Sequence record: OV696614
Source of the DNA: Escherichia phage Cyrano
Strand: one strand, 5' to 3'
DNA: 64,000 bases
This document shows positions 5,431-43,265 of this stretch, piece by piece. The notes under the pieces are model-generated. The model saw only the letters and a program-made list of their open reading frames with translations, did no database searches and was not told the origin of the DNA. Positions within the stretch are counted from its first letter, which is position 1. Every line of letters starts with the position of its first letter. The translations under genes were made by a program, and so were the position numbers.

Positions 5431-5606
5431 TGCTCGGCTGGATGATTGCATTTTTAGCAGTTGGTTTTTTCATAGGTATTGTGGTGATGTCCAGTTGCAT
5501 CAATGACTACATTAAAAGCGGTGTTATAGAAAGACGCGGTCGTATTTATCGCATTGTAGAAATAACCAACACCCTGAAGGAGATTAAGGATGATCGTATT
5601 AAGTAA
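5427..5606 (+). CDS. small membrane protein (below ORF-track cutoff)
   Basis: 59-codon ORF read by hand, ATG overlapping the ligase stop (ATGA); hydrophobic N-terminus MMLGWMIAFLAVGFFIGIVV. Confidence 0.3.
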   Translation: MMLGWMIAFLAVGFFIGIVVMSSCINDYIKSGVIERRGRIYRIVEITNTLKEIKDDRIK

Positions 5607-5805
5607 ACGGGAGAAGGAAACGCTTCATGAAATCAGTAAGTGGCCGGAGTTCCCTGAGTACTGGAAGCCTAAAACGCGAGCTAAGTTAGAGCGTTTAGGG
5701 TTGGTTGCAAACGTTTCTGAAACGAAGTGTTCGGCCAACTACCAGTTAACTGATAAAGGGAAAGTATTGCTACAGCAATTAGTAGAATCAGGAGTGTTAA
5801 AATGA
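5590..5805 (+). CDS. hypothetical protein
   Basis: 71 aa; AAGGAG RBS; translationally coupled to neighbours. Confidence 0.4.
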   Translation: MIVLSKREKETLHEISKWPEFPEYWKPKTRAKLERLGLVANVSETKCSANYQLTDKGKVLLQQLVESGVLK

Positions 5806-5954
5806 TTCCATACATCTCATTAGCTTTTATGGGTGGCTTCCTTATCGGCTTCGGCATCTGTCGTGATTTAATTAAGCAGGAACTTAAAACCAAAACACTG
5901 TGCATCGGAAAGCGTGTGTATCGGGTAGTTCATGAAACAAAGGTTAGAAAATGA
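5802..5954 (+). CDS. small membrane protein (below ORF-track cutoff)
   Basis: 50-codon ORF read by hand; ATGA overlap with upstream and downstream genes; hydrophobic segment. Confidence 0.3.
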   Translation: MIPYISLAFMGGFLIGFGICRDLIKQELKTKTLCIGKRVYRVVHETKVRK

Positions 5955-6241
5955 GCAATTTAACTTCTTGGGACTGGTGGTTGGCCACCTATTTCTTAGC
6001 GGCCGGAGTCGCATTCGCCTTTTACGTAGGTCAGTTAGTCGTAAAACTGTTGCTGATTAAATTTGCTAGTCATAAACGTATCGATGATGGTCTGTGGCGT
6101 CTTGGCACCCTGGTGGAAACTCGCTACGGGCAACTTAAGGAGAACGAAACCATTACTATCCAGGCGAAACGATTCACTGCCACCATCACAAGAACACCTA
6201 GTCGTAGAGTGGCCTTGATCAAAAAAGTCACAACCGAATAA
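5951..6241 (+). CDS. membrane protein, unknown function
   Basis: 96 aa; N-terminal transmembrane helix WWLATYFLAAGVAFAFYVGQLVV. Confidence 0.4.
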   Translation: MSNLTSWDWWLATYFLAAGVAFAFYVGQLVVKLLLIKFASHKRIDDGLWRLGTLVETRYGQLKENETITIQAKRFTATITRTPSRRVALIKKVTTE

Positions 6242-6250
6242 AAACATCAT

Positions 6251-6272
6251 GATAAGTATTTACTTACTTATC
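6251..6272. repeat. Intergenic palindrome family (GATAGGTAAGT..ACTTACCTATC-like)
   Basis: gataagtatttacttacttatc just after the stop at 6241. Confidence 0.4.
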
Positions 6273-7020
6273 TTTTATGTATAAGATGACTTTGTTTTCG
6301 TTGAGACGCGACTGTTTGAACTTAAATACAAGTGCAAACGAAGAAGTCTATCTGGCAGTAGCCTAATAAGCCAAACACCAGCGAGGTCAGTTTCCAGCCT
6401 CGTTACCGAAATGGGACACACTGAGCGAGTGTGATTGCAGAACGCAGGAGGGAACATTCATGTTCCCTCCGATGAAGTAACAGAATGGGCGGTTGGTATA
6501 TTTTCAACTCCATATGACTCCCGGATTCTTAGCCACTGACCGCCCATCCTGTTACGTCATTTTGTTCAATTATGTCGTTTATACTGGGTTAAAAAGCGGC
6601 GACGTAGCCCGGCTGGTATGGTTAGCCAGCACACAACGTTGAGGCCATTACATTTTTATCAATTCTAAGGTTCTATTCACAGAGATACCGGCGAGCGTTG
6701 ATATGTAACATGTTGGGCAAACATTCAATCGGAGTAGTGGCCTCAACGTTGTGAAGACGGGATTGTTGTGTAGGTTTAACCACTGTTGCCATTGGTGCCT
6801 GTTTTCACAACAAATGATTCCATACATCACATTGTATAAATTACAAAGTAGGTGCTGTCCTCAGAAACATCATCTACTTAAAGATTTTGCCTTCTACTAT
6901 TGAGCGAAGTCGAAAGCGTCTGGCACTAACGAAAAGTGCAAGTAGCGGTGCGTTTCCTGGCAGAAACTAAACCGTCGCGATTGGCACTGTTGAGTAAAAA
7001 AATACTGGCAGTGCCGAATT

Positions 7021-7095
7021 GATGGTGTAGCTCAGTGGTAGAGCAGTTGGCTGTTAACCAACTGGTCGGTGGTTCGAATCCACCCACCATCGCCA
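7021..7095 (+). tRNA. tRNA-Asn (anticodon GTT)
   Basis: Cloverleaf read by hand: acceptor gatggtg/caccatc, anticodon loop ctGTTaa, T-loop ttcgaat, 3' CCA. Confidence 0.85.
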
Positions 7096-7097
7096 AT

Positions 7098-7173
7098 GCC
7101 GGTTTAGCTCAGTTGGTAGAGCACCTGCCTTGTAAGCAGGATGTCAGCGGTTCGAATCCGTTAACCGGCACCA
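7098..7173 (+). tRNA. tRNA-Thr (anticodon TGT)
   Basis: Acceptor gccggtt/aaccggc, anticodon loop ctTGTaa, T-loop ttcgaat, 3' CCA. Confidence 0.85.
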
Positions 7174-7181
7174 ACACAATT

Positions 7182-7268
7182 GGAGAGTAGAGAGCATGGT
7201 GCTCAAGCGGTCTTGAAAACCGTCCCATTGCGCAAGCGATGATGGTTCGATTCCATTACTCTCCGCCA
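7182..7268 (+). tRNA. tRNA-Ser (anticodon TGA), type II with long variable arm
   Basis: 87 nt; acceptor ggagagt/actctcc, anticodon loop ctTGAaa, long variable arm, T-loop ttcgatt, 3' CCA. Confidence 0.8.
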
Positions 7269-7424
7269 GACACAGCGTTGAGCGGTTTGGCCTTTTAATC
7301 AACTCGATTAAGACTCCGCTAACATAAACCAGACCGCTCAACGCTGTGATAGACAATTACGGCAGACGTTCTTAACCATAGCTTGCTAACATCATAGCAA
7401 CACTTTTTTTTCAGCGCAAAATTC

Positions 7425-7448
7425 AAAGGGGCTTCGGCCCCTTTTTTG
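7425..7448 (+). terminator. Rho-independent terminator after tRNA cluster
   Basis: GC hairpin ggggcttcggcccc followed by ttttttg. Confidence 0.6.
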
Positions 7449-7490
7449 CAACTGAAAGAGTCAAGTCTACGAACTTTGTAGGAAGAAATA

Positions 7491-7841
7491 ATGACCAGCA
7501 AAGAGAACACACCACTAAAAGTCACCTCTGAACACATTGAACAACTCATTCAAAGTGAACATTATTTCACTGCATATGATGCCAGCCACGGGGATAACTT
7601 CATCTCTGTTTACAATTCAAAAACAGATATCGACAAAGGTCATGAGTCGTTAAAACTCTTAACGTTCTGCGTTATGGTTCTCAAAAATGGATATACCGTA
7701 ACGGGAAAATCTGCGTGCGTAAGACCAGAAATCTTCAACTTTGATGTTGGTCGCGAGTACGCTCGAAAAGATGCTGTCGATCAAATCTGGCCCCTGGAAG
7801 GCTATCTCCTGAAGCAAAAGTGGCATGAGGCAAAGCAATGA
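7491..7841 (+). CDS. hypothetical protein
   Basis: 116 aa; RBS aggaag; stop overlaps next start. Confidence 0.45.
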   Translation: MTSKENTPLKVTSEHIEQLIQSEHYFTAYDASHGDNFISVYNSKTDIDKGHESLKLLTFCVMVLKNGYTVTGKSACVRPEIFNFDVGREYARKDAVDQIWPLEGYLLKQKWHEAKQ

Positions 7842-8083
7842 CGATCACTATCTACGGACGAGATAACTGCTCATACTGCAAACGTGCGGTCGAGCTGGCG
7901 AGGCAACTAAAGGGACATGGCTACGGTGATTATGAGTACATCGACATCACCACTGCCGGTATCGACAAGAAAAAACTAAGTGAAATTGTTGGTAAACCGG
8001 TAGAGACTATCCCCCAGGTGCTGATCGATGGCCAGCCGATTGGCGGATACACAGAGATGGCATCTTTCGTAAGTTTCTTATAA
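7838..8083 (+). CDS. glutaredoxin-like protein (NrdH/NrdC-type)
   Basis: 81 aa; N-terminal active site IYGRDNCSYCKRA (CxxC) and glutaredoxin-like fold length. Confidence 0.75.
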   Translation: MTITIYGRDNCSYCKRAVELARQLKGHGYGDYEYIDITTAGIDKKKLSEIVGKPVETIPQVLIDGQPIGGYTEMASFVSFL

Positions 8084-8120
8084 GTAAAAGCCACATCTTT
8101 GTACATATAGTACATATAAC

Positions 8121-8146
8121 AAAAAAGGCCCATATGGGCCTTTTTC
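8121..8146. terminator. Bidirectional rho-independent terminator
   Basis: aaaaaaggcccatatgggccttttt: palindromic hairpin with A-run and T-run, between convergent genes. Confidence 0.6.
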
Positions 8147-8267
8147 ATAACTTCTAGCTAACCACTACAGTGGCTTAAAGACCACTTCACCCTTGCGTTC
8201 AGCTTCAGCTTTAGCAGTCATGAATCGTTTGATCATTTCGACTTTGCTAGCATGGATAGTTTTAAAA

Positions 8268-8822
8268 TCAATCTTCCCTTTGTTTTGGGTAGTGTTGTGT
8301 TCGTATCGCATAGGAAGCTCCGTCATTTAAATAAGTTAGGCCACGCTCTTGTGTAAATCTCTTCACATATCTCTTGTATGTGGCCATCAGTTCTTCGCGT
8401 TCTGCCGCAAAGAATAAAATCTGTATGCCTTCATTGTCGGCAACTTTGAGCATTAAGTCAACTAAAGTACCGTAAAGGTATTGAAGTTCACCTAAAGTAA
8501 GATTAAAAGACCCTTCGGGTTTGGCAAATACGTTAATTGGCTCTTCCGCTCCAAGAGCGACATTCTGGAGCTGTTCTTGCTGCCTGTCAAGTTGAATCAT
8601 GTCCACAAAACTAACGACAGATACACACAACCCATAAACATCAGCACCTAACATATTATGCATAGTTTCTGCGGCAACAGGATCTAAAGAAGGAGGGCAA
8701 AAGACTAAACGGTATCTAGCCTTACGAGCTTCATTGCCAGAGAAAACAAAGTCTATATCTAAATATGACAGATCACCCGGCAATGAAGCCAAACCAGGTG
8801 TAACCAACTTATGCAAGTGCAT
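8268..8822 (-). CDS. hypothetical protein
   Basis: 184-aa minus-strand ORF in a locally reversed segment next to the integrase. Confidence 0.4.
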   Translation of the reverse strand: MHLHKLVTPGLASLPGDLSYLDIDFVFSGNEARKARYRLVFCPPSLDPVAAETMHNMLGADVYGLCVSVVSFVDMIQLDRQQEQLQNVALGAEEPINVFAKPEGSFNLTLGELQYLYGTLVDLMLKVADNEGIQILFFAAEREELMATYKRYVKRFTQERGLTYLNDGASYAIRTQHYPKQRED

Positions 8823-9089
8823 CTGTCTCGAATCCCTCTTTATTAGTATAAGTTGTCTTATTGTACCCTACCAAACGTTTATATGCATTGTTATGTATTA
8901 TTTTGATTTTCAATATTACCTCCTAGAACGAAGGGTAGATTTCAAAAAACGCATCCTCAATGATTCCATACCTACTATGTATGGAATCATTACTGAAAAT
9001 GAGTTACTTTTACTCTTGATCCTATAAGAATCTATGCCTAATATACTGTTTACTTATACAGTGCATCGGCGTAACTCGGTGATTGTCAT

Positions 9090-10193
9090 ATGAAAAATAG
9101 CTTTGACAGAGCACGCGCTGCGGAGAACACCTCAAAAGAGGCGATTGAGTATCTCGAAAGAGCATCTCAAATGCAGGCCGTTATGATCTCCCAGGTCAGC
9201 AATGACATGAGATTCTCGGACGCATTCATGTTATTCACTCGCTTATCTCTGCTGATAACAAGACGTCGGCCAGAGATCGCTGTTCATTGTATTTTGATAC
9301 ATGTTTTGCCGCACATTGCCGATGTAAAAGTAAGTGATATTAATAGGTTCATGGTGAACCAACTGGTCAACCCACTAATACTGGATGGCAAAATTGTTAT
9401 GGGTCGCCGCGTTTTCTCTCTGATGAAGCAGTTCCTCAGCTGGTGCGCCTTCCAGGGGATGATCGACGTGTCACCGTTAAACGATATGTCACTTAACAAA
9501 GTTGCCGGTGGCGCAAAGCCCACACCTCGCGAGCGGAAGCTAACCGACGCAGAGGTATGGGTGTTCTGGAATATATGGGACTACTTCAATGTGTGTGCTG
9601 GTACAAAATGGGCGGCCAGGCTATGTCTTGTATCCGCAAGACGACCTGACGAAGTACTGCGGGCTAAAAAAAGTGAGTTCAACCTCCAGCGTGGGGTTTG
9701 GAATCAAGGCAAGAGAAACAAATCAGCCCGTGAGCATTCTCTGCCTTTAAGCACATTAATGCGCACATGCATTGAAGAGTTATTCGAATATGGTAAAGGC
9801 AGCCAGTGGCTTGTGCCTTCGAATAAAAAAATCGGGAAAGATCTTCCGATGTCTAAAGTGGCAATAGCCCAGGCATTACGCCGTATCCTGGAACGACCAG
9901 AACTGATGGAGCTTGAGCCATTTACACCACGAGATTTGCGTCGTACTGCGCGTAGTTACTTCCCAGCATTAGGCATAAGCCAGGAGGTATCACGTAAAAT
10001 CATGAACCACAGTCTTGAGGGGATAGATCGGGTCTACGACCGGCACGATTATATGGACGAGATGCGAGACGCCTTAGAAAGTTTCTCGACGTACATCGCA
10101 TCAATCGTAGAGCAACCGGATTTAGACGAAATTGACCACAAATTTAAGGGAGATCGTCTATCAACAGAGCTTATTCGTGTAAATTTTTCATAG
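9090..10193 (+). CDS. tyrosine recombinase / integrase (P4-like)
   Basis: C-terminal catalytic region PRDLRRTARS..KIMNHSLEGIDRVYDRHDY (R, H-x-x-R-like, terminal Tyr). Confidence 0.7.
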   Translation: MKNSFDRARAAENTSKEAIEYLERASQMQAVMISQVSNDMRFSDAFMLFTRLSLLITRRRPEIAVHCILIHVLPHIADVKVSDINRFMVNQLVNPLILDGKIVMGRRVFSLMKQFLSWCAFQGMIDVSPLNDMSLNKVAGGAKPTPRERKLTDAEVWVFWNIWDYFNVCAGTKWAARLCLVSARRPDEVLRAKKSEFNLQRGVWNQGKRNKSAREHSLPLSTLMRTCIEELFEYGKGSQWLVPSNKKIGKDLPMSKVAIAQALRRILERPELMELEPFTPRDLRRTARSYFPALGISQEVSRKIMNHSLEGIDRVYDRHDYMDEMRDALESFSTYIASIVEQPDLDEIDHKFKGDRLSTELIRVNFS

Positions 10194-10574
10194 AGACTTT
10201 ATGGCCTCAACAACCTTTTGTGATGCGCCTTTCTCTTTACCGAATCGCTCGTTATATGCAGCAAGAACCTGTTTTTCGTCCTCGTTAAGAGGAGCAGTGC
10301 CTTCTTTGTATAAAAATGCTGCGAGTTCGGGTTGGCGTTCTTCCAGCACCATCATCATAAGACGACTTGGCTCAATGCCCAGTGCCAGCGCCAGCGGACG
10401 AACCTTATCGATAGGCAAAGGAATTTTGCCGCTTTTAATTAAAGAAAGGTTGTTGGCGTTTTTATACCCAATTGTTTTGGCTATCTGGGCCTGGCTCATA
10501 GGTGAGGATTCAATCAACCCTGCGATAAAAGCAGCGTAGCGACTTTCTATAAATTCAATCTTGTTATCAGACAT
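10188..10574 (-). CDS. XRE-family helix-turn-helix transcriptional regulator
   Basis: 128 aa; HTH MSQAQIAKTIGYKNANNLSLIKSGK; divergent from downstream genes. Confidence 0.7.
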   Translation of the reverse strand: MSDNKIEFIESRYAAFIAGLIESSPMSQAQIAKTIGYKNANNLSLIKSGKIPLPIDKVRPLALALGIEPSRLMMMVLEERQPELAAFLYKEGTAPLNEDEKQVLAAYNERFGKEKGASQKVVEAIKSL

Positions 10575-10606
10575 GGTTACAACCTTTGCGCGTTCAATTC
10601 TCTCTG

Positions 10607-10620
10607 GTAAGTGCTTACCG
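10607..10620. promoter_or_regulatory. Palindrome GGTAAGTGCTTACC, candidate operator
   Basis: Perfect 6-2-6 inverted repeat about 35 nt upstream of the HTH regulator start; shares core with the recurrent intergenic palindrome. Confidence 0.4.
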
Positions 10621-10825
10621 ATATTACATCAAAGGTTAGGGTTGTAAAGCTATTATCATTTTTTTCGATAGGCACTTAAAAGACCGGTTAAAGGCCATTG
10701 CACGGAGAAAAATTAGCCCAAAACAGGTAAGAAAATCAACTTGCATATGATATGAATGTATTCAGTATTGATATAAATTTTAGTAGTATTCCTTACCATA
10801 GTATAAGTTAGAATGGATTGATTGA

Positions 10826-11038
10826 ATGAACACCACTATTTCCAGCCTAATCGCTCTTGAGATCGGACACGTACAGAAATTAGTTGATGAGTGTGTAGCT
10901 GACATCCTCACCGATCTACCGAATGAGCAGATTCAGGTTGGTGTGAATGACACAACTGGATTTATATTCGAACTTAACAACAAACGCTTCACGCTTCTCA
11001 ATACCGGCTCCGGGTCTTTAGCCGTCAGAATCTGTTAA
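10826..11038 (+). CDS. hypothetical small protein
   Basis: 70-aa ORF in divergent intergenic region; weak support. Confidence 0.25.
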   Translation: MNTTISSLIALEIGHVQKLVDECVADILTDLPNEQIQVGVNDTTGFIFELNNKRFTLLNTGSGSLAVRIC

Positions 11039-11136
11039 CCCCTCTTCTCCCTGCGCGAATGGCTTAGTTCCCTGTTCGCGCAGTGCTACATTAAACACAC
11101 TAGTAAATAATTTGTTTTCATAACAAAGGATTAGCC

Positions 11137-13245
11137 ATGTCTAAAAAACGTTCCATCAAAGAGGTTCAGGACTTCCGTGACAGTGTAAAACGAGTAGTCG
11201 CTCTCCTTTCAGGTAAAAACATCCCTGTTGCAGAACGAGGGGACGACGCTTATGTACGCTATAACGATGATGGAGAGCCAATTCTCGTAAACATCCCATC
11301 AATCCCGGATAACGCAACACCGGCATTGATGAATGCTGTGCGCGGATTTCTCGATCATGAGGTTGCTCACATTTTGTTTACCGATATTCGTGTGTCCAAC
11401 AAAATGAGAGAAAAAGGACGCGTTCCTTCCTGGTCGCTATGGAATGCCTTAGAAGACGTGTTCATCGAGCGAAAAATGGGTCAGGTCTTTAACGGAACAA
11501 GACGTAATCTGATGGCAACTCAGCGCCTTATTATCGAAAAAGTCTTTAAACCAAAGGCTTCAGAGGCTATTGCTTATTGTGGCAAAGATCAGCGCGCGCT
11601 TTTTCTAAACTTCTTTCTCTGTCCGGTTGTAAGAGCCTGGGATGGCCAAGCACCGTTCGTAGATTTCATGGATGAATATTGGCCTGTCATTGAGAAACCA
11701 ATTTCATTATTAAAAGAACATGGTATCGATGTGGCCGTGCGTAACATGTCTTGCACCGAGGATTGTGTAAAGGTGGCTGCGACCATAGCTAAGATCCTCA
11801 AAGACACTGAAAGTGAAAGCAACGGTAAGGAGTCAGCTCCGGGAAAAACTTCCGATCCTTCAGACGCTGACCAGACGGATGCCTCTGGAGAAAACAATGA
11901 AGATAACGAAGATCATGAGACACCCTCAGCGTTAGATAATCACAAATCTATCAAATCAGAATCACACAATAAGCACAAACATGATAATAATGACAGTGAT
12001 GATTTAGATAATTCTGAATCATCAGAAACAATATTCGATGATACAGAAAATGATAAAGAGGTATCAGATTCTGATGCTTCTGATAACGCGGCGTCAGAAT
12101 CATTAACCGCTGACCACGAAAAAAGAAAAACGACAGAAGACGGCTCTTCAGATATTCCAACTCCGTCAAAAATGAGTCTGGAAGAGGCTTTAGAGGAGCT
12201 GGATAGCATAGAAGATGAAGTCGGAGGCATGACAGAAGATGCTCTATCCGAAACGATTAAAAGCGAGTTAACAGAAAGCTCGAAAAGCGAATACAGGCCA
12301 TACAATCGCTCATACGACTTCATCGGCTCGATTGATCAGGCAGAAGCCCATATCAAACGGCTTATTAAAACATTCTCCGATATTGATTTAGGAGGATGTC
12401 CAATCAGCCGCTATCGCATCGTTCCTGAAGGCAACCAGCTCTTCGACAAATATATTGAAAAGCATCTTTCGTCAGGTGTTTCGTCGACGCTGGCAAAAGA
12501 CCTGGAGCGAGCAATAGCAAGCAGAAACAGAGTTCAGTTTATACCGGGCCAGCGTCGGGGGCGCATTCATGGTTCTAGTATCTACAGATTAGCAATGAAT
12601 GATGATCGCGTGTTTCGTAAAAAAGAAGAATCTAAAGCCGTTAACGCCTGTGTTCAACAAGTGATTGATTTATCAGGTTCAATGAGGGGTATAACGATAC
12701 AATTGGCTCTTGCAAGTGCATATACCATCGCCGATGCCCTTGATCGAATAAATGTTCCCAACATTATCACCGGCTTCACTACATTTGGTAGTCATATGGC
12801 GGCAGGAGAACTTAAGGCTGTCAAGTATGAGTTCTCTCGCTTTGAATCTTTAATGCTACCTATCATCAAAAATTGGAATGAAAAGGTAAATTCTCGCGAA
12901 GTTCGCTCACGTATGGGGTGCGTAGGCTACACATTCCCACTTCTTAATAACGTGGATGGTGAAAGCATAGCCAGCCTTGCATCGTTATTTTCCGGTCGCA
13001 TGGAGGACAGGAAGATCATGCTTGTTCTGAGCGATGGCGAGCCGTGGGCTGTTGGGAGAGGTTTTGACGCTCATTTGCGTTCGGTTGCGAAGCAAATTGA
13101 AACGCAGACTGACATTGATTTGATGGCAATTGGCATCATGACTGACGCACCGGAGAGATTTTACTCAAATCATGCCCTGGTAACGAGCGTTGATAGTCTT
13201 GGTTCATCTGTAGTTACTGAACTATCTCGTATCATTTTAAAGTGA
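11137..13245 (+). CDS. von Willebrand factor A domain protein (CobT-like)
   Basis: 702 aa; C-terminal vWA MIDAS motif VIDLSGSM; long acidic Ser/Asp/Glu-rich linker. Confidence 0.7.
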   Translation: MSKKRSIKEVQDFRDSVKRVVALLSGKNIPVAERGDDAYVRYNDDGEPILVNIPSIPDNATPALMNAVRGFLDHEVAHILFTDIRVSNKMREKGRVPSWSLWNALEDVFIERKMGQVFNGTRRNLMATQRLIIEKVFKPKASEAIAYCGKDQRALFLNFFLCPVVRAWDGQAPFVDFMDEYWPVIEKPISLLKEHGIDVAVRNMSCTEDCVKVAATIAKILKDTESESNGKESAPGKTSDPSDADQTDASGENNEDNEDHETPSALDNHKSIKSESHNKHKHDNNDSDDLDNSESSETIFDDTENDKEVSDSDASDNAASESLTADHEKRKTTEDGSSDIPTPSKMSLEEALEELDSIEDEVGGMTEDALSETIKSELTESSKSEYRPYNRSYDFIGSIDQAEAHIKRLIKTFSDIDLGGCPISRYRIVPEGNQLFDKYIEKHLSSGVSSTLAKDLERAIASRNRVQFIPGQRRGRIHGSSIYRLAMNDDRVFRKKEESKAVNACVQQVIDLSGSMRGITIQLALASAYTIADALDRINVPNIITGFTTFGSHMAAGELKAVKYEFSRFESLMLPIIKNWNEKVNSREVRSRMGCVGYTFPLLNNVDGESIASLASLFSGRMEDRKIMLVLSDGEPWAVGRGFDAHLRSVAKQIETQTDIDLMAIGIMTDAPERFYSNHALVTSVDSLGSSVVTELSRIILK

Positions 13246-14756: not shown

Positions 14757-17700
14757 ATGAAAGCACTGATGGTTCGAACTGACTTCTCACTTGGGGAGTC
14801 GGCTCTAAAAGCAGAAAACGCGGTGAAGATTGCCAGAGAAGCTGGCTACACCGCTGTAATTTCAGCAGATAGCATGAATATTGCGAGTGTTATTCCACTA
14901 CAACGTGCCGCTGGTGACGACATGGCGGTTATTTGTGGTGTGAAACTAAATATCGTTGATGATCCCACATACGAGCACCGGGCTAAACTTGCTAAAGAAT
15001 CTATGAGATGTATGGAATCATTAGAGCGGGGACGTAACTACTCGTTTACCGCTCTAATTAAAAATGAGCAAGGATATCGCGACATCTGCGAACTAATGAC
15101 GGCGGCCAACACACGAGAACAGTTCTACTTTGTACCGCGTCTCTCGCTCGAACAGTTGGTTTCTACATATGCCAAAGGCAACATCATCCTGCTTACTTCC
15201 GACATCGGTAGCGTGTTCCAACGCAACGATTTTGCAAAAATCATAAGCACACTGATTACAGCGGGTGGAAAAGACAACTTCTATAGTGTGGTTTATCCGC
15301 ACCCTACCCCATTCTACGACCAGATTAACGTCCGGGCGATGAAAGTCGCCAGCGCATTGAAAATAGAGCCAGTGGCGTTCTATCCCGCTTATTACGAATC
15401 GATCGACGATGCAGACATTAAAGACATTGCGCACATGGTTACGAACAACATCAAAATCGACCAGCCGCATCGTCTGCGTATCCCCCACCAGCGAGATAAC
15501 GCCATCAATGGTCGTCGCCATCTCCTTGAGGCGCTTAAAGCCTTCTCCGTTCGCATGGATGTGCCGGTAACAGCTGCAATGGCCTCAACAACGCAGGACT
15601 CCATTATCGATGCCTGCACATGGCGCTGGCATGAATTGCCACCAGCACTGCCCAAGATGGCAGACGACGAACCTGCAACGCTGATGAAACTGGCTGTTGC
15701 AGGGCTGCGTAAACGTCTTACCACAAAAGAGTTTGGATACACACCACCTGCTTCTGAGAACAGGGTTTATGTTGAGCGGCTAAAGTACGAAATGGACACG
15801 CTGACTCGCCTGGGATTCTGTGGTTACTTCCTGATGGTACGCGATCTGATGAATCACAGCCGTGAAACTGGCATTCCTGTCGGGCCTGGTCGTGGTTCCT
15901 CTGCCGGTTCTCTGGTGGCGTGGTGCATAGGCATAACCAACGTCGACCCAATCCGTCACGGTCTTCTGTTTGAGCGTTTCATCAACCCTGAGCGTCTCGA
16001 CTTGCCGGATGCGGACTTGGACTTCAGCCAGGCACGTCGCCATGAGGTGATCGAGTATCTGAATGAACGCTACGGCGAAGATTACGTTGCAGGCATTCCG
16101 AACTTCACCTATCTGGGCGCGGCATCTGCACTACGTGACACCGCTCGTATTTATGGTGTGGAGTCCGCAGATATGGCGGTATCAAAAGAACTGAAGAACG
16201 TCGAGGATGATAGCCTTCCATTGGAAGAGCTGCGCGAACAACTGGCAAGTCTCGACAAATACGCAACAAAATATCCTGATGCATTCAATGCAGCCTGCAA
16301 GTTACAAAGCCTTATGCGTGGCTTTGGTAGACATGCGGCAGGGATGATCGTAGCAGGTGTTCCTCTGACAGAACGTACACCGGTTGAGCGCCGTGGTGAC
16401 GCGCGTTGTATCGCATTTGACAAGCGTTACTGCGAGGCTATGGGCCTAATTAAGCTGGACGTGCTTGGCCTGGCAACTCTCGATTTGCTCGATAGTGCAA
16501 AACGCTACATCAAAGAGAGTACCGGGGAAGACATCAATCTCGACGCTATCCCACTGGACGATCGCAAGGTTCTGGATGGGTTCGCTGCAGGGTACACGCA
16601 GGGCGTATTCCAGCTGGAGTCCGGCCCCATGCGTAAGTTGCTTAAAGATCTGGGCGGTGGCATCGAGCCAATGAGCTTCAAGACCGTTGTCGCCACGACC
16701 GCACTCTTCCGACCAGGCCCGATCCAATCCGGCATGTTGGACGACTATGTCTCCGTGGCCAAAGGCTTCATGGCTCCACATTCAATTCATCCGCGTCTTG
16801 AGGAAGTCACCCGGGAGACTAATGGTGTTTTGCTCTATCAGGAACAAATCATGCAAAGTTCCCGAGTACTTGCCGGGTTCTCTATGGCCGAAGCAGACGC
16901 TCTGCGTTCCGCTATCGGTAAAAAGAACATGGATAAGATGAAAGCGATCGGCAGCGATTTTGTAGAACGAGCACAAGCAGGCTGGGTGACACTGTCACTC
17001 AAAAATGGAGGTACTGTAGAGGTTCACAAACACGCAAAACTGGATTGCTCAGACGGTAAGCGTAGAAGCTACAGCGAGGCTATTAGTGACGGCATAGACT
17101 ACGTGGAGATCGTCTCTGAACAAGAAGGTCTCAGTAAGGAAAAAGCCCAAGAAATATGGGACGCCTTTGAGAAGTTCGGTGGATATGCCTTCAACAAATC
17201 ACACAGTGTTGCTTATTCTTTAATCAGTTATCAGTCTATGTGGCTAAAGACGCACTACCCTGCTGAGTTCTTCGCAGCTGCGCTCACCATTCTGGGCGAG
17301 GATAAGCATCAGGGGCTGGTGAAGGATGCGCTGACCTATGGCATTCGCGTATTGCCACCAGACGTTAATGTGTCATCTAACCGAATTGAGATCCGCACAC
17401 TCGAAGACGGCAGTCAGGCACTGTATGCGCCATTCTCTGCTGTGAAAGGCTGTTCTGAAAATGGTTGTCAGGCAATTATGCGTGCGCGTGAGAAAGTTGG
17501 TGGCAAATTCGAGTCAGTGGCACAATTCGATGAAGCGGTCGAGAAGCGTGCATGTAACAGTCGTGTACGCGAGTCGCTTCATAAAGTAGGGGCTTTTGCG
17601 TCAATTGAGCCAGGCAGTCTGCCAGCAACTGATCCTGAACGACTGCGCGACCAGGCTGAGCTGATGGGCAATCTCATCATTGACGCTGTTAAAGCATCAC

Positions 17701-39589: not shown

Positions 39590-40459
39590 ATGAACTTTAC
39601 CAAACTGACTGACCACCTGAAACTTGCCACCGATCGACTCATTGGATTTAAGCCAGAACCATATGAGTTGCATGAAGGTCATGGTGTAGCTACTGAAAGT
39701 ATTTACAAGATGGTCGATCAGTTTCATGAACTCTTCCAGCATCCGAGACGCGTTATGCCGACACCAGAGCTGCTTCGTCTCCGTGCAAGCCTGATTCATG
39801 AAGAAGCTGTAGTGGAAGGTATTCCAGCTGCAATGAATGGGGATATTGAGCAACTGCTGGATGCAATGGCCGACTTTTTATACGTTGGTGTTGGTACGAT
39901 GGTCGCCATCAAAGGTGGTATTTCTACCGGCATGACCTATTACACGCAGGAACAGAGCATTGATCGCTTTATGCAGACAATTTTTGTGCCTGGTAACACT
40001 GTTTTCGATGATATGGCAATGCCATTTCAGGAAGCTCGTGAGGCGTCATGTATGCTCGAAGAGCTGGCAGATAAACTTGAGAACAAGACTGTTAAGGATT
40101 CTGAGCTGATTCAGGAACTGCGCCGTGTCATGAACAAAATCTATGTGGCGTGCATGATGACCTATCGACTGGCTGATTTCCTCGGTATCAATGTAGTCGA
40201 GCTGGTTGGCGAAATTCATCGGTCTAACATGACAAAATTATGGCCTGCTGATGTTGAGGAACGTCGCCAGGCTGTGGCCAACTGCAAATACGACTCTTCA
40301 GATCTGGGATTCCGCCATGCTGATGGCACCGATAAGATGATCGGTTTTCGAATTTCCGATGGAAAGATTCTGAAGTCTCCAACCTATAGTGATGTCGATT
40401 TATCCTCCTTTGTTGAGCAAGCTAAAGCCTCAGCAATGTACGGAATGATCAAAAAATAA
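39590..40459 (+). CDS. hypothetical protein, possibly MazG-like NTP pyrophosphohydrolase
   Basis: 289 aa; acidic helical motif LIHEEAVVEGIPAAMNGDIEQLLDAMADFLYV resembles the MazG EExxE..D pattern; tentative. Confidence 0.4.
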   Translation: MNFTKLTDHLKLATDRLIGFKPEPYELHEGHGVATESIYKMVDQFHELFQHPRRVMPTPELLRLRASLIHEEAVVEGIPAAMNGDIEQLLDAMADFLYVGVGTMVAIKGGISTGMTYYTQEQSIDRFMQTIFVPGNTVFDDMAMPFQEAREASCMLEELADKLENKTVKDSELIQELRRVMNKIYVACMMTYRLADFLGINVVELVGEIHRSNMTKLWPADVEERRQAVANCKYDSSDLGFRHADGTDKMIGFRISDGKILKSPTYSDVDLSSFVEQAKASAMYGMIKK

Positions 40460-40629
40460 TTGTAGGTAGTTATCTATCTGTGTATATTTAACATGCGTAA
40501 TAAAACTCTGGAATGACTATTCGTTTTGGTGGCCTATGGCCACCATTTTTTTATCTGTCTGGTCTTGTTCTCTCAATGAATGTAAACTCACACGATGAAT
40601 AAGTAATTACTTATCTTTGTGAGGTTTTT

Positions 40630-41733
40630 GTGTCACTCCTTTTGAATCGAGAGCATACGAACGGTCAGGTAACAAACGCATCGTATGCAAAAGTTATTGA
40701 GACGGTGCTTAAAAGCGGCGTGCAGGCTGATGATCGCACAGGCACTGGCACTTTAAGCACCTGCTACGTTCCCTCTTACTACATGCTTACTGGTGGGACT
40801 GTGCCGCTTATTTCTGGAAAGGCGGTAAATCTTAAGCCACTACTTGTCGAACTTGAGTGGTATCTGAAAGGCACGGGCAACATCCAATTTCTCAAGGATA
40901 ACGGCGTTAAGATTTGGGATGCATGGGCCGATGAGAATGGCGATTTGGGGCCGGTTTACGGTAAGCAGTGGCGTCGATGGGAAGATACCCGCATCGTGAG
41001 CCATAGTGAATATCTGAGCAAGATCGCTACTTTCCGTGAACGCGGGTACAAAGTCGAGGGATACCTGGGTATCAGTGAAGATCGCGTAGTGCTGTCCCGT
41101 GAAATCGATCAGCTACAGCGTATTGTCGATACACTGCGCACGAACCCTACCGATCGTCGCATCATGCTTAACGCATGGAACGTAGGCGAGCTTGAGGATA
41201 TGAAACTGCCACCTTGCCACTTTGTCTTCTCTTTGTGGAGTCGTGAGCTGGATTTTGAAACCCGTTTAACGATGGCAACTGACATTGGTCTTCAACACAG
41301 TCGCCTCGGTTACGAGTCTATCTACACCAAGATGCTATACGATCTGGAGATGGACGGCAGTGTTACTGAAGCTGAACTGGATGAACTTGGAATCCCCAAA
41401 CGCATCCTCAACTCCTGCCTCGTACAGCGTAGCGTAGACACTTTTGTTGGTATGCCATTCAATATTGCTGGCTATGGCATTCTCACTCATTTTCTCGCGA
41501 AGATTACGGGTCACATGGCCGGTGCATTTGTGCATTTTGGCTTTGACGTGCATTTGTACAACAACCACATGGAAGGTGTGTGTGAGCTAATGAAACGACA
41601 GGCTCCAGAGCATTCAGATCCGGTCGTTATTTTCCCTCATGAATGGTCAGAGTTGGATGATTTCAAATGGGACGAGGTTTTAATTCTTGGCTATGACCCT
41701 CTACCGTGGATCAAGGTTCCAGTGGCGGTGTGA
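40630..41733 (+). CDS. Thymidylate synthase with internal insertion
   Basis: 367 aa; ThyA blocks DRTGTGTLS, DENGDLGPVYGKQWR, NAWNVGELE, PCH, GMPFNIAGY; about 100 extra residues. Confidence 0.85.
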   Translation: MSLLLNREHTNGQVTNASYAKVIETVLKSGVQADDRTGTGTLSTCYVPSYYMLTGGTVPLISGKAVNLKPLLVELEWYLKGTGNIQFLKDNGVKIWDAWADENGDLGPVYGKQWRRWEDTRIVSHSEYLSKIATFRERGYKVEGYLGISEDRVVLSREIDQLQRIVDTLRTNPTDRRIMLNAWNVGELEDMKLPPCHFVFSLWSRELDFETRLTMATDIGLQHSRLGYESIYTKMLYDLEMDGSVTEAELDELGIPKRILNSCLVQRSVDTFVGMPFNIAGYGILTHFLAKITGHMAGAFVHFGFDVHLYNNHMEGVCELMKRQAPEHSDPVVIFPHEWSELDDFKWDEVLILGYDPLPWIKVPVAV

Positions 41734-41734
41734 T

Positions 41735-42148
41735 ATGGCAAGAGGTATGTATGTCTTATGCGAAATTGAAGGTGTGCTGGCAAATGCCAGCCATCGTAAA
41801 TCAGTATCTGACGCGGATGCAGGCCAGCTCATTGCCGGTGATGAACTCATTTTCCCCACCAGCCGTATGTTGCGTGGTTTTGCTCGCTCAGGGGCTGAAG
41901 TGGTGCTTATCAGTAGCCGCTCTGAAACTCTTGAAGCGCCCACTAAACGATGGCTGAAAGATTTTGGCGTTGATTACGACTGGCTTCATCTCGTACCGAA
42001 TAGCACCAGTTATGAGAAGCATATTAAGCGCACATTAGCGGAGCATAAAGGCGATCTGCTTATCGCTGCGCTGGTGCACGATCCTCGACTCCGTGCCGCT
42101 TTAGCTGACTCTCATCATAGACCGGTCATCTATGAGGTGAGCAAATGA
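41735..42148 (+). CDS. hypothetical protein
   Basis: Start moved to ATG right after the thyA stop (MARGMYVL); 137 aa. Confidence 0.4.
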   Translation: MARGMYVLCEIEGVLANASHRKSVSDADAGQLIAGDELIFPTSRMLRGFARSGAEVVLISSRSETLEAPTKRWLKDFGVDYDWLHLVPNSTSYEKHIKRTLAEHKGDLLIAALVHDPRLRAALADSHHRPVIYEVSK

Positions 42149-42621
42149 AGATGATAGCTGCTGTTGGCCGTAACTATGAGATCGGCATAGCGAACGAACT
42201 GCCCTGGCGTTGTTCTACCGATCTGAAGCTATTTAAGAGACTCACCAAAAACGCCACTGTCGTTATGGGGCGTAAAACGATGGAAAGTCTCAAACGCCCT
42301 CTTCCAGAGCGTCATAACCTCGTTTTGACGCGCTCTCATGGCTTTGTACCAAATGGATTCTACCCTGCTGGTGTGGATGATGTGTTGCGATTACCAGAGC
42401 CTGTGTGGGTGATTGGCGGGGAACAAATTTACTCGCTATTCATGCCGCATGTTGAAGAGATTTGGCTCTCCCACATCGGCGTTGATGTACCAAACGCCGA
42501 TGCATTCTTCCCGGCAAGCATGATGCGTAACTTAGGCTTTGTGCCTGTTGAAACAGCTTATACCCAACGAGCCAGCGAGGAAGAGCCTGGCTTTTCGCAG
42601 ATCGTATACAGAAGGTCGTAA
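42145..42621 (+). CDS. Dihydrofolate reductase
   Basis: 158 aa; MIAAVGRNYEIG..LPW, VVMGRKT, VIGGEQIY motifs. Confidence 0.85.
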   Translation: MKMIAAVGRNYEIGIANELPWRCSTDLKLFKRLTKNATVVMGRKTMESLKRPLPERHNLVLTRSHGFVPNGFYPAGVDDVLRLPEPVWVIGGEQIYSLFMPHVEEIWLSHIGVDVPNADAFFPASMMRNLGFVPVETAYTQRASEEEPGFSQIVYRRS

Positions 42622-43265
42622 TGGATTACCGGATTGGGATCACTGGTGCTCAGGGCAGTGGGAAAACAACCCTGGCTAAATATATCGACAAACATTACGG
42701 AATCCCTTACGTGGATGCTGGTGTCGGAAGTTTGATGAGCCGCCTCGGTGTTCGAGTAGGTGAGTCTATGCCTCTATATGAGCGGCTTCAGATTCAAATG
42801 GAAATAGCAAAGCATATAGAGCTACTTACACGTGGTGTTGAAGGCTTTGTTATCGATCGCACACCTGCTGATGTTATGGCCTACACGTTGGATTTGGTCG
42901 GCCATACAAATGAAGATCGGTGTATTGAGTTAGCCCTCGATATCGAAAAGTTTTGCCACAAAACTGCTATTTCAAACTTTAACGCCATTGCTGGCCTACG
43001 CCCGGGGGTCGCTCTCTCAGAGCGAGATTACTTGCGATCACAACGAGCATCATTAGACCGTCTGTATGTCGCTCGTATTGATGCGTTGATGTGCGGGGAA
43101 CTGACAAAAATTCACCTGCATCCGCAAAGGGGAGATCTGCAAACCTTCGTCGTTTCCAACCGATATCGCACGGTTGAAGCAAGAGCCAGATCAGTGATGA
43201 GAATGCTAGATAACGCTGTAGAAAAGATAGAAAACCGGTTCTGTGGCCGAGTAACCGTTCATTAG
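42621..43265 (+). CDS. P-loop nucleotide kinase (dNMP kinase-like)
   Basis: 214 aa; Walker A GITGAQGSGKTT near N-terminus; sits in the nucleotide-metabolism cluster. Confidence 0.55.
   Translation: MDYRIGITGAQGSGKTTLAKYIDKHYGIPYVDAGVGSLMSRLGVRVGESMPLYERLQIQMEIAKHIELLTRGVEGFVIDRTPADVMAYTLDLVGHTNEDRCIELALDIEKFCHKTAISNFNAIAGLRPGVALSERDYLRSQRASLDRLYVARIDALMCGELTKIHLHPQRGDLQTFVVSNRYRTVEARARSVMRMLDNAVEKIENRFCGRVTVH

What the first reader, a model, noticed from the sequence alone, without database searches (positions are those of the whole stretch)
8268..10620. Integrase plus XRE repressor module in a locally inverted segment next to the tRNA cluster
A P4-like tyrosine recombinase (9090-10193) is followed by a convergent Cro/CI-like HTH regulator with a perfect palindrome GGTAAGTGCTTACC in its upstream region, and by an unknown minus-strand gene (8268-8822), about 1.8 kb from three tRNA genes. 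In a replication module otherwise transcribed on one strand, this looks like either the element's own lysogeny/integration switch or a nested integrative element that targeted the tRNA region.
Basis: partly seen in the sequence, partly recalled or inferred. Interest (0 to 1): 0.5.

Follow-up and report, generated by a model that had tools for sequence, protein, structure and literature searches.

The report
Lox-like recombinase module of phage-plasmid
The "integrase" belongs to a virus that lives as a free plasmid in E. coli and never inserts into the chromosome; it most likely cuts and rejoins a short mirror-image DNA site just upstream of its own gene to keep plasmid copies separate, while the neighbouring regulator is probably the element's own repressor, so this is an ordinary maintenance module, though its target site seems not to have been described.

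Summary
The window matches Cyrano/pLF82, an SSU5-type phage-plasmid (window = published coordinates minus 32000).

- **int never chromosomal.** int (9090-10193) occurs in 252 of 5426 complete E. coli genomes, always on plasmids, and in 835 PLSDB plasmids, with int / HTH / 70-aa ORF / CobT / CobS / DnaE in the same order.
- **Unnoticed target site.** About 100 bp upstream lies a 13-7-13 inverted repeat (8959-8991). Its arms are invariant in 78 related loci and change symmetrically in distant clades. Its spacer varies. There is one copy per replicon.
- **Simple recombinase.** Int keeps the catalytic residues but lacks the P4-type arm-binding domain. Relatives sit between par and rep genes of a small plasmid and on megaplasmids.
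- **Best reading.** A Cre/loxP-like multimer-resolution system, inferred and not assayed. Its promoter carries a conserved LexA box.
- **HTH regulator.** The HTH (10188-10574) is probably an autoregulated repressor. Its 6-2-6 repeat covers its predicted transcription start and recurs in intergenic gaps.
- **Variable cargo.** Gene 8268-8822 is variable cargo, possibly GNAT-like, and very highly expressed in lysogens.

No tRNA-derived att repeats exist. Interest is moderate.

The parts
8959..8991 (.). Candidate recombination site. Left arm AATGATTCCATAC (8959-8971), 7-bp spacer CTACTAT (8972-8978), right arm GTATGGAATCATT (8979-8991).
   Evidence: Found as inverted repeat I13. The arms are identical in 78 of 80 related loci while 11 different spacers occur. 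Distant clades carry TGACTCCAGAC-N7-GTCTGGAGTCA at the same place, with symmetric changes in both arms. There is one site per plasmid and none on chromosomes.
8939..8958 (.). Conserved A-tract (TTCAAAAAAC) just left of the site. It marks the left limit of backbone homology.
   Evidence: Alignments with PhiR41_1, pJN2-26 and L005/L010/L020/L028.
9016..9063 (+). Predicted int promoter: -35 TTGATC (9016-9021), 17-bp spacer, -10 TAATAT (9039-9044). It is overlapped by the LexA/SOS box TACTGTTTACTTATACAGTG (9044-9063).
   Evidence: CTGT-N8-ACAG found at 9046-9061. In the 77 loci with Int at least 82% identical that carry the upstream site, CTGT-N8-ACAG is kept in 73 and CTG-N10-CAG in the other 4 (L036, L037, L063, L079); the inner bases vary. 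The promoter hexamers are read from the sequence and score below the scan threshold.
9090..10193 (+). Tyrosine recombinase 'Int' (CYRAN_44), with core-binding and catalytic domains and no arm-binding domain.
   Evidence: Family hits. Invariant R185, R284, Y316 and Y321, and near-invariant K211 and H307. AF2 model pLDDT 84.9 with a helical N-terminus. Best structural matches are lambda Int 75-356, Tn1549 Int, Xer, IntI and Cre.
10188..10574 (-). XRE-type HTH regulator (CYRAN_45, 'putative repressor'), convergent with int and overlapping it by 6 bp.
   Evidence: Expression data. Homologues keep the same convergent position in Klebsiella, Providencia and a Photorhabdus plasmid.
10606..10619 (.). 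6-2-6 inverted repeat GGTAAG-TG-CTTACC, a probable operator covering the predicted transcription start of the HTH gene.
   Evidence: Conserved in every locus of the >=82% clade that had enough sequence. Related cores occur in the Photorhabdus plasmid.
10621..10648 (-). Predicted sigma-70 promoter of the HTH gene (TTTACA, 16 bp, TAATAT).
   Evidence: Promoter scan. The hexamers are conserved in pJN2-26.
10826..11038 (+). Conserved 70-aa ORF (CYRAN_46), divergent from the HTH gene and first gene of the CobT/CobS/DnaE transcription direction.
   Evidence: PHROG 2627 at 2e-40. Same position in all relatives examined. About 90x higher in macrophages than in LB.
8268..8822 (-). Variable cargo gene CYRAN_43 (184 aa), possibly with a GNAT-like fold. 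It is the most highly expressed gene in the part of the published Cyrano lysogen table that was read.
8165..8326 (-). 53-aa ORF overlapping the 3' end of CYRAN_43. It is a conserved partner gene.
   Evidence: PHROG 2140 at 4e-14. The same overlapping pair occurs in Xenorhabdus on a 39.9-kb contig with chromosomal-type neighbour genes.
8062..8940 (.). Extent of the cargo insertion relative to the commonest E. coli relatives, which have only about 85 bp between grx and the site.
   Evidence: At least 7 different left-flank types occur among loci whose Int is 98-100% identical to the query.
8121..8145 (.). Bidirectional terminator-like hairpin AAAAAAGGCCCATATGGGCCTTTTT between grx (+) and the minus-strand cargo unit.
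   Evidence: Read from the sequence. It is part of inverted repeat I7.

Best explanation
The window is an SSU5-type phage-plasmid (Cyrano/pLF82 or a near-identical element) that is maintained as a free plasmid.

**int and its site.** int encodes a simple, two-domain tyrosine recombinase. Its target is the 13-7-13 inverted repeat about 100 bp upstream of its own gene. One Int monomer would bind each arm, and strand exchange would occur across the 7-bp spacer. Because there is one site per replicon, two directly repeated sites exist only in a plasmid dimer. Recombination between them returns monomers, as Cre/loxP does for P1, and this secures segregation of a plasmid present at about 5 copies per cell. 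Circularisation of terminally redundant DNA after infection is a possible second role.

**Regulation of int.** int is transcribed from a weak promoter overlapped by a LexA box, so it is probably kept low and raised during the SOS response.

**The HTH regulator.** The convergent XRE-type HTH protein is a separate function. It would be a repressor that binds GGTAAG-N2-CTTACC at its own transcription start (autoregulation) and at similar palindromes abutting -10-like hexamers in other intergenic gaps.

**The cargo.** The minus-strand genes 8165-8822 are exchangeable cargo lodged between grx and the site.

**Shown by computation:** the site, its conservation and covariation; the plasmid-only distribution; the domain architecture; the LexA-box conservation; and the distribution of the operator motif.

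**Inferred:** that Int acts on this site, that the outcome is multimer resolution, that LexA binds the box, and that the HTH binds the motif.
For: **Identity and lifestyle.** Window coordinates equal the published Cyrano coordinates minus 32000, and the 'Cyrano int' qPCR primers are found verbatim in the window sequence (my comparison of the primers with the sequence; coordinates). Cyrano is a plasmid at 5.5 copies per cell.

**Distribution.** int has 254 places in 252 of 5426 complete E. coli genomes, none chromosomal. The 41-bp site occurs in the same 252 genomes, once per plasmid, never chromosomal. int is matched in 835 PLSDB plasmids across Klebsiella, Escherichia, Enterobacter, Yersinia and Salmonella. 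No listed family member lies on a contig longer than 0.9 Mb.

**The site.** Its arms are invariant in 78 loci while 11 spacers occur. Arm changes are symmetric in the clades with 44-58% Int identity.

**Context outside phages.** Relatives lie between parA/parB-like genes and Rep3 on a 33.8-kb Photorhabdus plasmid, and on about 0.5-Mb Pantoea and Rahnella replicons.

**The enzyme.** The arm-binding domain PF13356 is absent from the whole family and present only in homologues at 34% identity or less. The N-terminus of the model is helical. The fold matches lambda Int core-binding plus catalytic domains, Xer and Cre. The catalytic residues are conserved.

**No competing recombinase.** Int is the only site-specific recombinase annotated in the complete relative pJN2-26.

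**SOS control.** The LexA box is conserved across the >=82% clade. The only other perfect box in the window sits in front of a UmuD-like S24 peptidase gene. int is expressed in lysogens and is about 25x higher in macrophages.

**The HTH.** Supporting data are.
Against: - No recombination has been demonstrated. The link between site and enzyme rests on adjacency, conservation and covariation only.
- SOS control is unusual for a housekeeping resolution system and is better known from integron integrases.
- DNA immediately left of the site is a mosaic hot spot. This could mean that Int also mediates cargo exchange.
- Three extra isolated copies of the arm plus ATC (5802, 6814, 15010) are conserved in Klebsiella relatives and are not explained by a simple resolution model.
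- The host XerCD system or homologous recombination functions of the element (RecA-like, RuvC-like) could already deal with dimers.
- The 41-bp BLAST search would miss a short attB core in the chromosome.
- The dispersed palindrome could be bound by a protein other than the HTH, for example a late-gene activator as at P1 late promoters. That comparison is from my own knowledge.
Confidence: 0.6

Rival explanations
1. Cargo-exchange platform. Int and its site work like an integron platform or a recombination hot spot. SOS-induced Int recombines the site with sites or pseudo-sites on co-resident relatives or circular DNA, swapping the gene cargo that lies immediately to its left.
For: At least 7 unrelated left flanks abut the site among loci whose Int is 98-100% identical to the query. 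One left flank is 93% identical between clades whose int regions are only 78% identical. The window carries an 880-bp cargo insertion ending 19 bp from the arm. int and the strongly expressed cargo diverge from the site. A LexA box lies at the int promoter, as is known for integron integrases (my own knowledge). Conserved isolated arm copies lie further left.
Against: Cargo segments are not flanked by two sites. The distal boundary lies in the 3' end of grx. No attC-like elements were seen. Clades that share a left flank have different spacers, which should block site-specific exchange. A conserved element next to freely varying DNA gives a sharp boundary without any catalysis. Large cointegrate plasmids still carry a single site.
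Confidence: 0.12
2. Infection or lytic-cycle function. Int mainly circularises incoming terminally redundant phage DNA, or processes replication products after SOS induction, rather than serving plasmid segregation.
For: The LexA box implies highest expression under DNA damage, when Cyrano is induced 39-fold by ciprofloxacin. P1 Cre has such a second role (my own knowledge).
Against: The same site-plus-int unit is kept on non-phage plasmids and megaplasmids that make no virions. int is also expressed in uninduced lysogens. The packaging mode and genome ends were not examined.
Confidence: 0.1
3. True integrase. The module is an integration/excision switch that inserts the element into a chromosomal attB, perhaps in hosts or conditions not sampled.
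For: Int descends from the P4-like integrase branch. It lies next to a regulator and near tRNA genes. It is annotated 'integrase' everywhere.
Against: None of the 254 int copies is chromosomal in 5426 complete E. coli genomes, and no chromosomal copy of the site exists. No tRNA-derived repeat was found. There is no arm-binding domain and no Xis-like gene in the region. The perfectly symmetric arms and the freely flipped spacer are not attP-like.
Confidence: 0.05
4. Nested integrative element. int, the HTH and the minus-strand gene form a foreign element that inserted next to the tRNA cluster.
For: Local minus-strand genes, lower GC at 8-9 kb (0.398), and proximity to tRNAs.
Against: int, the HTH and the 70-aa ORF are syntenic core genes in all relatives. 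Only the 880-bp cargo is variable, and it carries no recombinase. No flanking direct repeats were found.
Confidence: 0.02

Closest known systems
Cre/loxP of phage-plasmid P1 (and relatives such as Dre/rox and Vika/vox)
   Same: Carried by a phage that lives as a plasmid. Two-domain tyrosine recombinase without an arm-binding domain. Target is two 13-bp inverted arms around a short asymmetric spacer (7 bp here, 8 bp in loxP). The site lies close to the recombinase gene, with one site per replicon. The expected role is dimer resolution.
   Different: No detectable sequence similarity (no PDB hit at E<=1). Cre is only a mid-rank structural match. Int derives from the P4/lambda-type integrase branch. 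The promoter carries a LexA box. Extra isolated arm copies are present. Activity is untested.
P4-type integrases (IntS / CP4-57 family; NCBIfam PRK09692)
   Same: Closest sequence family. The central Phage_int_M domain and the catalytic domain are shared, including the DLRRT and YxRxxY motifs.
   Different: Lacks the N-terminal Arm-DNA-bind_3 domain (PF13356) that remote homologues have. Scores far below the family cut-off. No tRNA-derived att site and never chromosomal.
Plasmid multimer-resolution tyrosine recombinases (ResD/rfsF of F; TnpI/IRS of Tn4430)
   Same: Plasmid-borne, with the site beside the gene. In one relative the gene sits among par and rep genes. TnpI also uses extra copies of its own binding motif as accessory sites (my own knowledge).
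   Different: Homology to these enzymes was not tested directly (Int has no PDB sequence hit at E<=1). The extra arm copies here lie 2-6 kb away, not adjacent. SOS control is not known to me for those systems.
Integron integrase IntI with attI
   Same: LexA-controlled tyrosine recombinase gene that diverges from an adjacent primary site and a variable, expressed cargo region.
   Different: No attC sites or cassette array. The symmetric double-stranded site is unlike attI/attC. IntI is only a mid-rank structural match.
Dispersed-operator repressors of phage-plasmids (C1 of P1) and Cro/CI-type XRE repressors
   Same: Small HTH protein expressed in the lysogen. It has a palindromic operator at its own promoter and similar sites at many other transcription units.
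   Different: No S24 self-cleavage domain. Binding is untested. The motif could instead belong to an activator.

Membership tests
Tyrosine recombinase superfamily | Catalytic domain with the conserved Arg, Lys, His/Arg, Arg, His/Trp and Tyr residues | tested here: met
   Pfam PF00589 at 39.5 bits against a cut-off of 27.1. R185, R284, Y316 and Y321 are invariant, and K211 and H307 are near-invariant in 34 sequences.
Tyrosine recombinase superfamily | Two-lobed core-binding plus catalytic fold | tested here: met
   AF2 pLDDT 84.9. Foldseek matches lambda Int 75-356 with target-normalised TM 0.67-0.71, and also Xer, IntI and Cre.
P4-type integrases | N-terminal arm-type DNA-binding domain (PF13356 / DUF4102) | tested here: not met
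   Not found at E<=0.01. Absent from all listed full-length family members of about 340-395 aa and present only in homologues at 34% identity or less. Residues 1-40 of the model are short helices with no beta-sheet.
P4-type integrases | Score above the family cut-off (NF007246) | tested here: not met
   33.6 bits against a cut-off of 434, with the match limited to model positions 137-393.
P4-type integrases | attP shares identity with a tRNA 3' end, and the element is found integrated next to a tRNA gene | tested here: not met
   No repeat of the three tRNA 3' ends in the window. No chromosomal copies of int or the site.
Cre/loxP-type simple-site systems | Target is two inverted arms of about 13 bp around a 6-8-bp asymmetric spacer, with no accessory arm sites needed | tested here: met
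   13-7-13 repeat at 8959-8991 with invariant arms and a variable spacer. The spacer is found flipped with no change in either flank.
Cre/loxP-type simple-site systems | Sequence homology to Cre | tested here: not met
   No PDB chain at E<=1 by phmmer. It works like Cre/loxP but is not a member of that family.
Cre/loxP-type simple-site systems | The recombinase catalyses recombination between two copies of the site | not testable with these tools
   Needs an in vivo or in vitro recombination assay.
Plasmid multimer-resolution systems | Carried on plasmids, with one site per replicon | tested here: met
   All 254 int copies and all site copies are on plasmids, one per genome. Relatives lie on a small plasmid and on megaplasmids.
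Plasmid multimer-resolution systems | Loss causes multimer accumulation and instability | not testable with these tools
   Needs deletion mutants and plasmid topology or stability assays.
Integrons | Cassette array separated by attC sites next to attI | tested here: not met
   No second full site in the window or in the flanks of the fetched relatives, and one site per E. coli plasmid. The cargo's distal boundary lies in the 3' end of grx. No attC-specific scan was run.
LexA (SOS) regulon | CTGT-N8-ACAG box overlapping the promoter and conserved in relatives | tested here: met
   Box at 9044-9063, matching 16 of 20 positions of the E. coli consensus by my count from the remembered consensus. 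Kept in all loci of the >=82% clade with variable inner bases. The second box in the window precedes a UmuD-like gene.
LexA (SOS) regulon | LexA binding and derepression on DNA damage | not testable with these tools
   Only indirect support. int is about 25x higher in macrophages than in LB in published RNA-seq.
XRE / Cro-CI type phage repressors | HTH DNA-binding domain | tested here: inconclusive
   Pfam HTH_19 scores 19.7 bits, below the cut-off of 30.2. PHROG 8 'transcriptional regulator' scores 1e-11.
XRE / Cro-CI type phage repressors | Palindromic operator at its own promoter, and expression in the lysogen | tested here: met
   The repeat covers the predicted transcription start. It is conserved in every locus of the >=82% clade that had enough sequence. 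Expression is about 10x over background in the lysogen.
XRE / Cro-CI type phage repressors | RecA-stimulated self-cleavage domain (S24), as in lambda CI | tested here: not met
   No Peptidase_S24 hit, and the protein is only 128 aa.

The most novel reading that the evidence does not exclude
The site-plus-int unit is more than a dimer resolvase. It would be an SOS-triggered recombination platform that drives turnover of the highly expressed cargo slot beside it. The conserved isolated arm copies (5802, 6814, 15010) would be functional Int-binding or pseudo-recombination sites. A further untested possibility is that SOS-induced int transcription, running convergently into the overlapping repressor gene, helps to flip the lysogeny switch of a repressor that has no self-cleavage domain.
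Probability: 0.12. Interest if true: 0.7.

Novelty: new member of a known kind. Interest (0 to 1): 0.42.

Why it matters
- **Annotation.** Genes labelled 'integrase' in hundreds of clinically common SSU5/pHCM2/pMT1-type phage-plasmids are probably plasmid-maintenance recombinases. This matters for prophage and mobile-element annotation pipelines that treat an integrase as evidence of integration.
- **Tool potential.** If Int recombines the predicted 33-bp site, it would add a simple recombinase/target pair unrelated in sequence to Cre. Two natural specificity classes exist (ATGATTCCATAC and TGACTCCAGAC arms), along with many natural spacers. That is the raw material for orthogonal genome-engineering tools.
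- **Cargo uptake.** The site also marks a hot spot where these elements, which carry resistance and virulence cargo, exchange genes.
- **Life cycle.** The LexA box and the dispersed operator motif give testable handles on how this poorly understood phage-plasmid group senses DNA damage.

Tried and rejected
- **Sequence search of Int against PDB chains.** No hit at E<=1, so closeness to Cre, Xer or lambda Int could only be judged by fold.
- **PADLOC on Int, the HTH, the 70-aa ORF, CYRAN_43 and the 53-aa ORF.** Nothing meaningful.
- **NCBIfam on the same proteins.** Only the weak PRK09692 hit.
- **att repeats derived from tRNA 3' ends.** None found. The generic repeat scan gave only short, chance-level direct repeats around the module.
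- **Rfam on 5500-11500.** Only the tRNAs reached threshold.
- **Second HTH gene as the real CI.** The HTH gene at 19112-19711 was considered, but it is published as the HicB antitoxin next to HicA and has no Pfam hit.
- **Dispersed arm copies as co-evolving accessory sites.** They are absent within 4 kb of int in the TGACTCCAGAC-arm clade and in the fetched flanks (2-6 kb either side) of the 57% clade, so they are not part of the minimal system.
- **Int-catalysed spacer flipping.** Rejected on mechanism. Exchange within the spacer cannot invert it relative to its own flanks. A template switch across the palindrome is more likely.
- **Literature.** Searches found no description of this site, of a LexA box at int, or of any Int assay. 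The D6/SSU5 comparative paper and the SSU5 genome note are not held.
- **Failed look-ups.** ENA record OV696614 is not in the collections. The look-up of P0130 failed. The 0.9-Mb contig carrying P0007 was not shown.
Full report
**What the window is.** The region lies in a phage replication and nucleotide-metabolism block: ATP-dependent ligase, three tRNAs, Gp49-family protein, glutaredoxin, CobT-like, AAA_5 ATPase and DnaE. Megablast finds 92-97% identical Escherichia 'phage' records and about 74% identical Klebsiella phage-plasmids. The first 25 kb align at 98-99% to about 110-kb E. coli plasmids.

The published S1 Table for the LF82 phage-plasmid Cyrano (pLF82, SSU5-like) lists CYRAN_43 at 40822..40268, CYRAN_44 'Integrase' at 41090..42193, CYRAN_45 'putative repressor' at 42574..42188 and CYRAN_46 at 42826..43038. 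These are the window ORFs plus 32000. The 'Cyrano int' qPCR primers are found verbatim in the window sequence. Cyrano is a plasmid at 5.5 copies per cell, makes virions, and is induced 39-fold by ciprofloxacin.

**The observation.** Three corrections apply.
- The 14-mer is a 6-2-6 inverted repeat, not a perfect palindrome.
- int is on the + strand like its neighbours.
- 'P4-like' is only a remote relationship.

**The feature that was missed.** An inverted repeat lies at 8959-8991: AATGATTCCATAC-CTACTAT-GTATGGAATCATT. It ends 98 bp before the int start codon.
- In 80 related loci from viral contigs, GTDB genomes and annotated records, 78 carry it at the same place. The 12-bp arms never change. 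The 7-bp spacer takes 11 forms.
- A locus whose Int is 56% identical has TTGATTCCATAC...GTATGGAATCAA, with the change made in both arms.
- Family members at 44-49% identity, from Pantoea, Rahnella and Providencia, have TGACTCCAGAC-N7-GTCTGGAGTCA 50-100 bp upstream of int. Relative to the window's arms, two positions differ and both differences are mirrored in the other arm. A Photorhabdus plasmid carries an imperfect version of the same repeat with slightly diverged arms.
- Invariant, symmetrically co-varying arms around a free spacer are the signature of a dimeric protein-binding recombination core. The adjacency points to Int as the binding protein. This last step is inference.

**Where int and the site occur.**
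- In 5426 complete E. coli genomes, int is found 254 times in 252 genomes: 0 on chromosomes and all on plasmids.
- A 41-bp query spanning the site hits the same 252 genomes, once per plasmid. The 504 reported places count both strands of a palindrome. None is chromosomal.
- That search would miss a short attB core. The absence of any integrated copy is nevertheless direct evidence.
- PLSDB holds 835 plasmids with a match to the int-HTH region, and 750 of them cover at least 80% of it. They come from Klebsiella, Escherichia, Enterobacter, Yersinia (pMT1 type), Salmonella (pHCM2 type), Citrobacter and Cronobacter.
- The gene order int / convergent HTH / small ORF / CobT / CobS / DnaE is the same in E. 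coli PhiR41_1, Klebsiella pJN2-26, a Citrobacter plasmid and a Providencia element.
- This excludes a nested element. No tRNA 3' end is repeated anywhere in the window.

**What kind of enzyme.**
- Proteins of about 365 aa at 43-100% identity occur across Enterobacterales. None of those listed is on a contig longer than 0.9 Mb, and none carries PF13356, the arm-binding domain of P4-type integrases.
- Only homologues at 34% identity or less, most of them 400-460 aa long, have PF13356 together with PF22022 and PF00589.
- The catalytic residues are conserved.
- The AlphaFold model (pLDDT 84.9) has short N-terminal helices followed by core-binding and catalytic domains.
- Its best structural matches are lambda Int residues 75-356, Tn1549 Int, Xer proteins, IntI and Cre.
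- Outside phage-plasmids, the site-plus-int unit sits between parA/parB-like genes and a Rep3 initiator on a 33.8-kb Photorhabdus plasmid. There it keeps the same convergent HTH and small ORF. It also occurs alone among ordinary genes on about 0.5-Mb Pantoea and Rahnella replicons.
- In the fully annotated relative pJN2-26, it is the only site-specific recombinase.
- Taken together, this is a plasmid-restricted, simple-site recombinase. Multimer resolution of the Cre/loxP kind is the most economical function. General reviews already anticipate such recombinases in phage-plasmids and list a tyrosine recombinase among persistent SSU5 genes. I found no description of the site itself.

**Regulation of int.**
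- Between the site and the start codon lies a modest promoter: TTGATC, 17 bp, TAATAT.
- It is overlapped by TACTGTTTACTTATACAGTG (9044-9063), which matches 16 of 20 positions of the E. coli LexA consensus as I remember it.
- CTGT-N8-ACAG, or at least CTG-N10-CAG, is kept about 29 bp before the ATG in every locus of the >=82% Int clade, while the inner bases vary. It is absent from the more distant clades.
- Two perfect boxes in 64 kb is not more than chance (1.1 expected). However, the other box sits directly upstream of a Peptidase_S24 (UmuD-like) gene, which is a classic SOS target.
- Published RNA-seq shows int at about 5x background in LB and about 25x higher 6 h into macrophage infection. 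Neighbouring genes rise 3-6x. This is suggestive but not specific.

**The HTH regulator.**
- Its predicted promoter (TTTACA, 16 bp, TAATAT) places the transcription start inside the 10606-10619 repeat.
- The repeat is conserved in every locus of the >=82% clade that had enough sequence. It is a perfect palindrome in Klebsiella.
- The Photorhabdus plasmid, which shows no phage genes in the 9 kb examined, has the core TAAGTGTTTAC upstream of its HTH homologue. It has a second palindrome with the same half-sites before the small ORF.
- In the window, four further copies fit GATAGGTAAGTGCTTACCTATC (35886, 45439, 47654, 52623). All are intergenic, just upstream of + strand genes such as nrdA, and each is followed by a -10-like hexamer.
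- pJN2-26 has 17 hits against 4.2 in shuffles. About 12 of these carry the extended flanks and lie in intergenic gaps around the genome (compared with the annotation).
- The simplest reading is an autoregulated repressor with dispersed operators, as C1 is for P1. That comparison is from my own knowledge. An activator-binding site is not excluded.
- The HTH has no S24 domain, so SOS induction must reach it indirectly.

**The minus-strand cargo.**
- Compared with the commonest E. coli relatives, the window carries an 880-bp insertion (8062-8940) between the 3' end of grx and the conserved A-tract beside the site.
- At least seven unrelated sequences occupy this slot among loci whose Int is 98-100% identical to the query.
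- One filling is shared at 93% identity between clades whose int regions are only 78% identical.
- The cargo here is CYRAN_43 plus an overlapping 53-aa ORF. The same pair also occurs in Xenorhabdus on a 39.9-kb contig with chromosomal-type neighbour genes.
- CYRAN_43 is the most strongly expressed gene in the part of the Cyrano lysogen table that I read, at 723x background.

**Unexplained.**
- The exact 15-mer ATGATTCCATACATC, which is the arm plus ATC, recurs at 5802, 6814 and, inverted, at 15010. The same 15-mer lies at the corresponding positions in pJN2-26, although overall identity is only about 74%. It has no second arm beside it.
- It is missing near int in the distant clades.
- Two plasmids with flanks 100% and 99.8% identical differ only by inversion of the 7-bp spacer. 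The same flip is seen for a second spacer type.
- Recombination within the spacer cannot cause such a flip. A template switch across the palindrome is the likely cause.
- The fact that the flip is tolerated argues that site orientation relative to its flanks is irrelevant. That is expected for a one-site resolution system and not for an attP.

**Verdict.** This is an ordinary, conserved maintenance and regulation module of a known phage-plasmid group. It is mislabelled as an integrase, and its candidate lox-like site and SOS box appear to be unreported. All mechanistic statements are inferences from sequence and from one published transcriptome. None has been assayed.

Noticed in passing
window 5802-5816 (+), 6814-6828 (+), 15007-15021 (-): Three isolated exact copies of ATGATTCCATACATC, which is the recombination-site arm plus ATC, with no second arm beside them. 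The same 15-mer lies at the corresponding positions in Klebsiella pJN2-26 (82930, 83918, 95113). A near copy lies antisense inside int in other clades.
   Followed up: partly
window 8972-8978; L001 versus L035: The 7-bp spacer of the site occurs in both orientations relative to int (CTACTAT/ATAGTAG and CTATTAA/TTAATAG). L001 and L035 have flanks 100% and 99.8% identical and differ only by this flip. A template switch across the palindrome is the likely cause.
   Followed up: partly
window 35886-35899, 45439-45452, 47654-47667, 52623-52636: Dispersed palindrome of about 22 bp, GATAGGTAAGTGCTTACCTATC, found only in intergenic gaps and directly before -10-like hexamers. The Klebsiella relative has about 12 such copies, including some between structural genes.
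   Followed up: partly
window 57277-57292 and 57311-57700 (+): A near-consensus LexA box (CTGTATGTGTATACAG) lies directly upstream of a 129-aa Peptidase_S24 (UmuD/HumD-like) gene.
   Followed up: partly
window 8165-8822 (-): A two-gene cargo cassette: CYRAN_43, possibly GNAT-like, plus an overlapping 53-aa ORF. CYRAN_43 is expressed about 700x over the prophage background in lysogens. The same gene pair also occurs in Xenorhabdus on a 39.9-kb contig with chromosomal-type neighbour genes.
   Followed up: partly
window 7144-7356: The published 'CYRAN_40 hypothetical protein', scored as a highly expressed moron, coincides with tRNA-Ser (7182-7268) and an adjacent 20-bp inverted repeat (7271-7290 / 7329-7348). 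The signal is probably tRNA expression.
   Followed up: no
window 23065-25404 (+): A 779-aa ORF published as RecA. RefSeq annotates it as a LAGLIDADG homing endonuclease or Hint-domain protein in relatives. It is probably a RecA-like gene interrupted by an intein.
   Followed up: no
window 6242-7020: About 780 bp without a convincing ORF upstream of the tRNA cluster. It contains two long inverted repeats (6472-6493/6539-6560 and 6632-6651/6734-6753).
   Followed up: no
window 27931-28143 (+), next to repA (28633-29688, -): A homologue of P1 Cra ('Cre-associated' protein, as published for CYRAN_62) lies beside the replication initiator, 19 kb from int rather than next to it.
   Followed up: no
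window 19112-19960 (-): A HicA/HicB toxin-antitoxin pair as published (CYRAN_50/51), strongly up-regulated in macrophages. RefSeq calls the 187-aa protein an HTH regulator. It has no Pfam hit here.
   Followed up: partly
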